Positions 23,356-23,376 of a stretch of 64,000 nucleotides of DNA are shown here, one piece after another. A program made the translations under genes and the position numbers. How positions within the stretch are numbered: position 1 is the first letter of the stretch; each line of letters starts with the position of its first letter. The notes below the pieces were generated by a model. The model searched no databases and was not told where the DNA came from. It saw only the letters and a list, made by a program, of their open reading frames with translations. The stretch comes from Escherichia coli (lineage in GTDB: Bacteria; Pseudomonadota; Gammaproteobacteria; Enterobacterales; Enterobacteriaceae). Location of the stretch: assembly GCF_030013205.1 (NCBI RefSeq), contig NZ_CP122648.1; one strand, written 5' to 3'.

Positions 23356-23376
23356 TAAATAATTGAGTGGGAATGA
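23356..23376 (+). other. Prophage right junction (attR region): short guaA 3'-end remnant encoding ...IIEWE-stop
   Basis: ATTGAGTGGGAATGA encodes IEWE*, matching the recalled C-terminus of GMP synthase; only 5 codons preceded by an in-frame stop. Confidence 0.5.

What the first reader, a model, noticed from the sequence alone, without database searches (positions are those of the whole stretch)
23356..23376. Prophage right junction lies on a 5-codon guaA 3' remnant, implying integration into the guaA 3' end
ATTGAGTGGGAATGA (23362-23376) encodes IEWE followed by a stop, the C-terminus I recall for GMP synthase, but the reading frame is closed by a stop only two codons upstream. This is the signature of an att core that duplicates a gene's 3' end. 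The intact guaA is expected just beyond the left end of the prophage, outside this window.
Basis: partly seen in the sequence, partly recalled or inferred. Interest (0 to 1): 0.45.

Follow-up and report, generated by a model that had tools for sequence, protein, structure and literature searches.

The report
Known phage attachment site at guaA
The short "IEWE-stop" fragment is the right-hand attachment site (attR) of a phiV10/epsilon15-type prophage inserted at the 3' end of the GMP synthase gene guaA; this site and its 17-base core are already published, so the finding is correct but ordinary.

Summary
Window 23362-23376 reads ATTGAGTGGGAATGA (IEWE-stop), with an in-frame TAA at 23356-23358. 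E. coli GuaA ends ...PPATIEWE.

Prophage-free E. coli genomes match the window starting exactly at 23362. The window is almost identical to strain ETEC4079: 1 SNP and 2 homopolymer indels over 64 kb. In that genome an intact guaA and a tyrosine integrase gene lie about 5.8 kb beyond the window's left edge. The same 17-bp core, ATTGAGTGGGAATGATT (window 23362-23378), sits at both prophage ends.

The core also occurs once in empty sites (attB). It occurs once in the free genomes of phages phiV10, epsilon15 and Tyrion (attP), flanked there by the window's left arm and by ETEC4079's integrase-side arm. This is the classic four-way att pattern.

The identical 17-bp core was reported with PCR and Sanger verification for phage vB_EcoP_ZX5 (PMC9782041). 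guaA is a documented target of the epsilon15 integrase cluster and of the genomic island GIsul2.

About 10% of complete E. coli genomes (567 of 5,426) carry this left junction.

Small additions:
- The phage supplies a near-copy of the guaA terminator at attL.
- This prophage copy is defective, having lost its terminase-to-capsid genes.

Verdict: already known, low interest.

The parts
1..23361 (+). Right-hand 23.4 kb of a phiV10/epsilon15-like (genus Uetakevirus) prophage. It runs from inside the repressor-like HTH gene to the lysis cassette. This copy is defective.
   Evidence: One-piece match of about 100% to ETEC4079, with phage annotation. The best phage matches are TL-2011b, EC.W1-9, phiV10 and ZX5, at 38-44% coverage and 94-96% identity. 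Deletions relative to the ETEC4071 prophage are shown.
22769..23251 (+). Last prophage gene: Rz-like spanin (DUF2514), the end of the holin-endolysin-spanin lysis cassette.
   Evidence: ORF list. Annotated as a DUF2514 protein in ETEC4079 and as an Rz-like spanin in phiV10 and epsilon15 at the same position upstream of attP.
23252..23361 (.). P arm of attR: phage-derived non-coding DNA between the spanin stop codon and the core. It includes the in-frame TAA at 23356-23358.
   Evidence: Collinear with phiV10, epsilon15 and Tyrion attP upstream of the core, and absent from attB and attL.
23280..23290 (+). GGTGACGGTAT, a candidate arm-type integrase binding site in the P arm.
   Evidence: Unique in the window, 0.02 expected. 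Repeated directly and in inverted orientation in the P' arm next to int. Conserved in phiV10, epsilon15 and Tyrion. The epsilon15 record annotates 10-bp 'integrase' binding sites in its P arm (L004 2152-2161) and P' arm (L004 2374-2383); by position these look like the counterparts, but I did not map them onto the repeat. Binding was not tested.
23333..23369 (.). Inverted repeat CACTCAATT (23333-23341) / AATTGAGTG (23361-23369), pairing the left half of the core with the P arm.
   Evidence: the repeat finder I1 in the window and in phiV10. Its function was not tested.
23362..23378 (+). 17-bp att core (common core of attR), ATTGAGTGGGAATGATT. Bases 23362-23376 are the last four sense codons plus the stop codon of guaA (IEWE*).
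   Evidence: Exact copies in attL (L002 7217-7233), attB (L001 2501-2517), and attP of phiV10 (L003 1486-1502), epsilon15 (L004 2233-2249) and Tyrion (L005 586-602). The same core is published for ZX5 (PMC9782041).
23379..23470 (.). B' arm: the native guaA-yfgI intergenic DNA, now separated from guaA by the prophage.
   Evidence: 100% identical to the empty site of FDAARGOS_448.
23403..23430 (+). Native guaA intrinsic terminator hairpin, followed by a T run.
   Evidence: Terminator scan. Present directly after guaA in K-12.
23471..24010 (-). yfgI (DUF5384), the first host gene to the right of the prophage, convergent with guaA.
   Evidence: ORF list. Annotated in ETEC4079, K-12 and FDAARGOS_448.

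Best explanation
Window 23362-23378 is the common core of attR, the right junction of a phiV10/epsilon15-type (Uetakevirus) prophage. [quoted passage not shown] The phage's P4-type tyrosine integrase recombined attP with attB. attP lies between the spanin gene and int. attB covers the last 15 bp of guaA plus 2 bp. The crossover fell inside their 17-bp identity, ATTGAGTGGGAATGATT. The products are attL and attR. attL is an intact guaA, the core, the phage P' arm with a phage-borne terminator, and int. It lies just outside the window. attR is the phage P arm, the core, and the native guaA terminator followed by yfgI. Hence the orphan IEWE-stop codons, closed upstream by phage sequence. The remnant is not a gene and encodes nothing. 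guaA stays intact at the other end. Shown here: the four-way att relationship, the integrase domains, and the prevalence. Inferred: the exact crossover position, probably in or near GAGTGGGA (23365-23372) by analogy with GIsul2; the roles of the arm-type repeats; and whether this copy can still excise.
For: 1. Breakpoints are exact and reciprocal. Empty-site genomes match attR from 23362 onward. They match attL only up to L002 7233, the last core base.
2. The core occurs exactly twice in ETEC4079 L002, at 7217 and 36361, bracketing 29.1 kb of phage genes. It occurs once in each empty site and once in each free phage genome.
3. The alignments show attB = B-O-B', attP = P-O-P', attL = B-O-P' and attR = P-O-B'.
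4. The gene next to attL encodes a 416-aa protein with Arm-DNA-bind_3, Phage_int_M and a near full-length Phage_integrase domain. It shows R..HDMRRT..H..Y motifs by eye. Its DNA is 98.0-98.2% identical to the int region of ZX5 and phiV10.
5. Published experiments report the same 17-bp attP/attB core and integration at the guaA 3' end, verified by PCR and Sanger sequencing for ZX5 (PMC9782041). TL-2011b inserts in guaA (PMC3293862). The epsilon15 integrase cluster targets the guaA 3' flank (PMC8138268).
6. The same attL junction is present in 567 of 5,426 complete E. coli genomes.
Against: The left junction is not in the window. It is inferred from a public genome that differs from the window by 1 SNP and 2 homopolymer indels over 64 kb. 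No experiment was done on this strain. The crossover point within the core and the Int and IHF binding sites are not determined. The prophage is degraded, so the junction is a relic of a past integration and not necessarily a site that is still active.
Confidence: 0.97

Rival explanations
1. Chance resemblance: a random 15-mer that happens to encode IEWE-stop and is unrelated to guaA.
For: Short motifs do recur. With 2 mismatches allowed, 12 of 100 shuffles gave at least one hit.
Against: The match is exact. It continues without a break into the native guaA-yfgI intergenic region and yfgI, 100% identical to an empty site. The breakpoint coincides to the base with the end of homology at attL.
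Confidence: 0.003
2. A guaA pseudogene fragment left by a deletion, rearrangement or illegitimate insertion such as a transposon-style target duplication. In this reading it is not an att core made by site-specific recombination.
For: The locus does show decay. There are internal prophage deletions and an IS1 in the neighbouring yfgH.
Against: The same 17 bp are carried by the free phage genomes between the spanin gene and int, joined to exactly the sequences found at the two prophage ends. A tyrosine integrase sits next to attL. 567 genomes share the identical junction. Integration at this core was shown experimentally for ZX5.
Confidence: 0.01
3. The junction was created by a different guaA-targeting element, such as a GIsul2-like genomic island or an unrelated prophage. 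In this reading the Uetakevirus DNA is merely adjacent to it.
For: guaA's 3' end is a shared hotspot. GIsul2 uses GAGTGGGA inside the same core (PMC9376610). Some genomes have other sequences abutting the core: H3 and H6 begin at query positions 367 and 461 and have no guaA annotated under the match.
Against: The 110 bp immediately left of the core in the window are collinear with the phiV10, epsilon15 and Tyrion P arm right up to the core. L002 contains only two cores, so there is no tandem element.
Confidence: 0.01

Closest known systems
Escherichia phage vB_EcoP_ZX5 (Uetakevirus) attP/attB at guaA (PMC9782041)
   Same: The 17-bp core attgagtgggaatgatt is identical. attP lies about 190 bp upstream of int, and attB is at the guaA 3' end. 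The int region is 98.0% identical in DNA.
   Different: ZX5 is a viable 39.6-kb phage. The window's prophage is a roughly 29-kb deleted derivative with a partly different gene content; only 38% of the window's prophage part is covered by ZX5.
Phages phiV10 (E. coli O157), epsilon15 (Salmonella), Tyrion (Enterobacter) and TL-2011b (E. coli O103:H25)
   Same: phiV10, epsilon15 and Tyrion share the gene order spanin - attP - int, the same core, the same arm repeats GGTGACGGTAT, and the same terminator hairpin between the core and int. TL-2011b is reported to insert within guaA and gives the best phage match to the window's prophage; I did not examine its att region. The epsilon15 integrase cluster is described as targeting the guaA 3' flank.
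   Different: In epsilon15 and Tyrion the identity with attB extends 1 base further, to 18 bp. They infect different hosts and carry different tailspike and serotype-conversion genes.
Genomic island GIsul2 integrating at the guaA 3' end (PMC9376610)
   Same: The same target gene end. Its reported integration site GAGTGGGA lies inside this core, at window 23365-23372. It also uses a tyrosine integrase with an AlpA-type partner.
   Different: It is a non-phage resistance island with a shorter reported core, and a 19-bp attB was used in the assays. No GIsul2 sequence is present here.
Lambdoid phage 21 and element e14 integrating into the icd 3' end (from general knowledge, not tested here)
   Same: These are prophages that insert inside the 3' end of a protein-coding housekeeping gene and carry a replacement 3' end, so the gene stays functional.
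   Different: Those elements replace a much longer stretch of coding sequence with a diverged copy. Here only 15 coding bases are duplicated, and they are identical.

Membership tests
Campbell-type site-specific prophage integration (att core duplication) | The same core sequence lies in direct orientation at both prophage ends. | tested here: met
   The core is at L002 7217-7233 and at 36361-36377 (equal to window 23362-23378), both on the + strand. attL comes from the near-identical genome ETEC4079, not from the window.
Campbell-type site-specific prophage integration (att core duplication) | The unoccupied site (attB) carries one core, and its flanks equal the outer flanks of attL and attR. 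| tested here: met
   K-12 L001 and FDAARGOS_448 L008. Homology breakpoints fall at the core edges.
Campbell-type site-specific prophage integration (att core duplication) | The free element (attP) carries one core, and its flanks equal the inner flanks of attL and attR. | tested here: met
   phiV10, epsilon15 and Tyrion genomes.
Campbell-type site-specific prophage integration (att core duplication) | Integration or excision is demonstrated experimentally. | not testable with these tools
   Published for the relative ZX5 by PCR and Sanger sequencing of attB, attL and attR (PMC9782041). Not done for this strain.
P4-type tyrosine integrase, epsilon15 cluster (guaA-targeting) | Tyrosine recombinase catalytic domain together with an N-terminal arm-DNA-binding domain. 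| tested here: met
   Pfam hits: Arm-DNA-bind_3 (8e-20), Phage_int_M (1e-11) and Phage_integrase covering 3-170 of 172 positions (2.5e-19). The N-terminal domain matches PDB chains 3ju0 ('Phage integrase') and 3jtz ('CP4-like integrase').
P4-type tyrosine integrase, epsilon15 cluster (guaA-targeting) | The catalytic residues (R, K, H-x-x-R, H/W, Y) are present. | tested here: inconclusive
   The motifs MVRKGE, HDMRRT and LAHEQKGVRAVY are visible in the translation. No residue-by-residue alignment to a solved integrase was obtained, because the printed alignments were spurious WD40 hits.
P4-type tyrosine integrase, epsilon15 cluster (guaA-targeting) | Close relationship to integrases known to target the guaA 3' end. 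| tested here: met
   The attL-to-int DNA is 98.0-98.2% identical to ZX5, phiV10 and TL-2011b, and about 81% identical to Tyrion and the epsilon15-like Salmonella phage SPNIS2.
Genus Uetakevirus prophage | Genome-wide similarity and synteny with epsilon15/phiV10. | tested here: met
   The best phage hits are all Uetakevirus-like podoviruses, at 94-96% identity over 38-44% of the window's prophage part. The spanin-attP-int order is conserved. The genome is mosaic and incomplete, so this is a degraded member.
Genus Uetakevirus prophage | A complete set of morphogenesis genes, meaning a viable phage. | tested here: not met
   Terminase small and large subunits, portal, protease and the N-terminal part of the major capsid gene are deleted relative to the ETEC4071 prophage: 6.8 kb plus 1.3 kb.

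The most novel reading that the evidence does not exclude
The phage att region is more than a 17-bp core. About 45 bp after the core, the P' arm carries a hairpin terminator (AACCCTCTGT-N4-ACAGAGGGTT plus a T run). Its stems match exactly in phiV10 and 9 of 10 bp in the window's lineage (ETEC4079 attL) those of the native guaA terminator, which lies 26 bp after the core in attB. It is conserved in phiV10, epsilon15 and Tyrion. attP may therefore be a decayed copy of a host guaA 3' flank. If so, integration swaps two equivalent terminators. guaA would be terminated by the phage copy at attL, and the phage late/lysis operon by the native copy at attR. I did not find this stated in the papers I could read.
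Probability: 0.4. Interest if true: 0.2.

Novelty: already known. Interest (0 to 1): 0.07.

Why it matters
It matters little beyond correct annotation. The finding fixes the right boundary of the prophage to the base: the last phage-specific base is 23361 and the core is 23362-23378. It shows that guaA is not disrupted and explains the orphan IEWE-stop codons. The guaA 3' end is an established integration hotspot for Uetakevirus phages and for islands such as GIsul2, and about one in ten complete E. coli genomes carry this junction. The only mildly interesting extra is the phage-borne look-alike of the guaA terminator. It illustrates how phages that insert into gene ends preserve the host transcription unit.

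Tried and rejected
1. I searched the window for a second copy of the core or of the 15-mer. There is none, which fits the left end lying outside the window.
2. I tried to read Kropinski et al. 2007 (PMC2698709) for the original epsilon15 att description. The paper is not held. I relied instead on its citation in PMC8138268 and on the epsilon15 GenBank annotation.
3. I tried to align the integrase catalytic domain to lambda Int through the PDB sequence search. Lambda Int chains were weak hits (E about 4e-4). The printed alignments were spurious WD40-repeat matches, so the catalytic residues rest on inspection and on Pfam only.
4. The Rfam and tRNA scans found nothing at the junction: no sRNA or tRNA is involved in this att site.
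5. I considered whether the TTTTGATCCC that follows the core (K-12 has TTTGACCC) is a recombination scar. I rejected this, because an empty site in FDAARGOS_448 has the identical sequence, so it is a strain polymorphism.
6. I considered tandem or multiple elements at the site and rejected this, because ETEC4079 has only two cores.

Full report
**Observation**

Window 23362-23376 reads ATTGAGTGGGAATGA. In that frame, 23320-23376 translates to GKMLSLNWLWYP*IIEWE*. The 15-mer occurs once in the 64-kb window even when 2 mismatches are allowed. GuaA of E. coli K-12 and of strain ETEC4079 both end ...SGKPPATIEWE*.

**What lies on each side**

To the right of the fragment are:
- an intrinsic terminator hairpin at 23403-23430;
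- a convergent 179-aa ORF at 23471-24010 on the minus strand, annotated yfgI in every genome examined.

To the left is a holin-holin-endolysin-spanin lysis cassette that ends at 23251. Upstream of it lie podovirus virion genes.

A megablast of window 22900-24100 against 5,426 complete E. coli genomes matched 5,419 of them. In most, the match begins at query position 463, which is window 23362, with guaA annotated directly under the match. These are empty sites. In 359 genomes the match also covers the phage side.

**The left end**

Window 1-23361 matches E. coli ETEC4079 (NZ_CP122643.1) in a single piece. Over all 64 kb the two differ by 1 SNP (window 7247) and 2 homopolymer indels, near window 15102-15109 and near 40495. 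ETEC4079 is therefore a valid stand-in for the DNA upstream of the window.

In ETEC4079 the gene order is xseA, guaB, an intact guaA (L002 5654-7231), and a tyrosine integrase gene (L002 7424-8674). Early genes follow, and the window starts at L002 13001, inside the repressor-like HTH gene.

**The core**

Reading attL, attB of K-12 and attR side by side gives a shared 17-bp sequence, ATTGAGTGGGAATGATT. It consists of the last four sense codons of guaA, its TGA stop codon, and two more bases.

| Site | Source | Position |
|---|---|---|
| attL | ETEC4079 (L002) | 7217-7233 |
| attR | ETEC4079 (L002) / window | 36361-36377 / 23362-23378 |
| attB | K-12 (L001) | 2501-2517 |
| attP | phiV10 (L003) | 1486-1502 |
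| attP | epsilon15 (L004) | 2233-2249 |
| attP | Tyrion (L005) | 586-602 |

The core occurs exactly twice in ETEC4079 L002 and once in each of the others.

The breakpoints are reciprocal to the base. Empty-site genomes match an attL probe only up to L002 7233, the last core base. They match the attR probe only from 23362, the first core base.

A four-way alignment used an empty site that is 100% identical to the window's host flank (FDAARGOS_448). It shows the textbook pattern attB = B-O-B', attP = P-O-P', attL = B-O-P' and attR = P-O-B'.

**The element and its recombinase**

The attL-to-int DNA is 98.0-98.2% identical to that of phiV10, TL-2011b and vB_EcoP_ZX5. It is about 81% identical to Enterobacter phage Tyrion and to epsilon15-like Salmonella phages. 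The window's prophage part finds the same Uetakevirus podoviruses as its best phage matches, at 94-96% identity over 38-44% of its length, so the genome is mosaic.

In phiV10, epsilon15 and Tyrion the core lies between the Rz-like spanin gene and int.

The integrase is 416 aa. It has Arm-DNA-bind_3, Phage_int_M and a near full-length Phage_integrase domain. Its N-terminal domain matches the PDB chains 3ju0 ('Phage integrase') and 3jtz ('CP4-like integrase'). The motifs MVRKGE, HDMRRT and LAHEQKGVRAVY are visible in the translation. I could not obtain a residue-level alignment to a solved catalytic domain.

**Anatomy of the att region**

Three sequence features are present. None was tested for binding or function.

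- An 11-bp repeat, GGTGACGGTAT, occurs once in the P arm at window 23280-23290 and is unique in the window. It occurs twice in the P' arm next to int, once direct and once inverted, and is conserved in phiV10, epsilon15 and Tyrion. The epsilon15 record annotates 10-bp 'integrase' binding sites in its P and P' arms, plus predicted IHF sites around the core. By position these look like the counterparts of the repeat, but I did not map them onto it.
- The left half of the core pairs with CACTCAATT (23333-23341) in the P arm.
- The right part of the core pairs with AATCATTCC in the P' arm.

**Mechanism**

Shown here:
- the att relationships;
- the integrase identity;
- an intact guaA at attL.

Inferred:
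- The integrase recombined attP with attB inside the 17-bp identity.
- The crossover probably lies in or near GAGTGGGA (23365-23372). That octamer is the integration site reported for GIsul2, another element that targets guaA (PMC9376610).
- The IEWE-stop codons at attR have no start codon and are closed two codons upstream by phage sequence, so they are a by-product and not a gene.

**Prior knowledge**

- The same 17-bp core was published for vB_EcoP_ZX5, as attP 190 bp upstream of int and attB at the guaA 3' end. attB, attL and attR were verified by PCR and Sanger sequencing (PMC9782041).
- TL-2011b was reported to be inserted within guaA (PMC3293862).
[quoted passage not shown] 2007 (PMC8138268).
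- The attL junction is present in 567 of 5,426 complete E. coli genomes.

The finding is therefore correct and already known.

**Small additions**

1. At attL the phage supplies a terminator 45 bp after the core (L002 7278-7301, AACCCTCTGTTTTTGCAGAGGGTT plus a T run). The native guaA terminator has 10-bp stems, AACCCTCTGT and ACAGAGGGTT (window 23405-23428). That pattern is unique in the window, with 0 expected by chance. The phiV10 hairpin matches these stems exactly; the ETEC4079 attL copy is perfect over 9 bp, with G in place of A at the tenth. The hairpin is conserved across phiV10, epsilon15 and Tyrion. This suggests that the att region derives from a host guaA 3' flank. It also means both transcription units keep an equivalent terminator after integration.
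2. This prophage copy is defective. Relative to the otherwise identical ETEC4071 prophage (L006), it lacks 6.8 kb (L006 4940-11739) at window ~4989/4990. That segment holds the terminase subunits, a tRNA-Arg gene, portal, protease and the capsid N-terminus. It also lacks 1.3 kb at window ~5835, and it has a 51-bp duplication at window 4357. The ETEC4079 annotation marks the corresponding pseudogenes.

**Verdict**

The site is already known and of low interest.

Noticed in passing
L002 7278-7301 (attL, outside the window) compared with window 23403-23430: The phage P' arm carries a terminator hairpin whose stems match those of the native guaA terminator (AACCCTCTGT / ACAGAGGGTT): exactly in phiV10, and 9 of 10 bp in the ETEC4079 attL copy. 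It is conserved in phiV10, epsilon15 and Tyrion. This suggests that attP descends from a host guaA 3' flank and that integration swaps equivalent terminators.
   Followed up: partly
window ~4357-4407, ~4989/4990 and ~5835: The prophage is a deletion derivative. Compared with the ETEC4071 prophage it has a 51-bp duplication, a 6.8-kb deletion and a 1.3-kb deletion. The 6.8-kb deletion removes the terminase small and large subunits, tRNA-Arg, portal, protease and the N-terminus of the major capsid gene. It cannot make virions.
   Followed up: yes
window 24422-25119 (IS1 transposase genes); yfgH fragments at 24026-24367 and 25126-25320: An IS1 element interrupts yfgH, the second host gene to the right of the prophage. 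yfgH is intact in K-12 and FDAARGOS_448.
   Followed up: partly
window 26174-28416 (+): pdeF (cyclic-di-GMP phosphodiesterase) is split into two ORFs, 26212-27306 and 27340-28416. It is annotated as frameshifted with an internal stop in ETEC4079.
   Followed up: no
window 48907-50346 (-): hyfD (hydrogenase 4 subunit) carries an internal stop at codon 148. It is annotated as a pseudogene in ETEC4079.
   Followed up: partly
window 17048-17135 (-) and 17154-17230 (-): Rfam hits to the C4 antisense RNA (78.6 bits) and isrK (74.7 bits) lie just upstream of the BRO-N-domain protein gene (16307-16999, minus strand), a possible anti-repressor. This would be a P1/P22-type immI antisense-controlled anti-repressor module inside the prophage.
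   Followed up: no
window 57371-57494 (+): Rfam hit to STnc490 (146 bits), directly upstream of an IS200C transposase gene inserted between bamC and purC.
   Followed up: no
window 10024-11721 (+): A prophage virion-region gene between the SLT transglycosylase gene and a large hypothetical gene is annotated 'exodeoxyribonuclease VII large subunit' in RefSeq. Given its place among internal-virion/ejection-protein genes, this looks like a misannotation.
   Followed up: no
one search hits H3 (query from 367) and H6 (query from 461): Some E. coli genomes have different DNA abutting the same core next to yfgI, with no guaA annotated under the match. Other elements or mosaic right arms therefore use this att site. 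The left-junction type (567 genomes) is also more frequent than the phiV10-type right arm (359 genomes).
   Followed up: no
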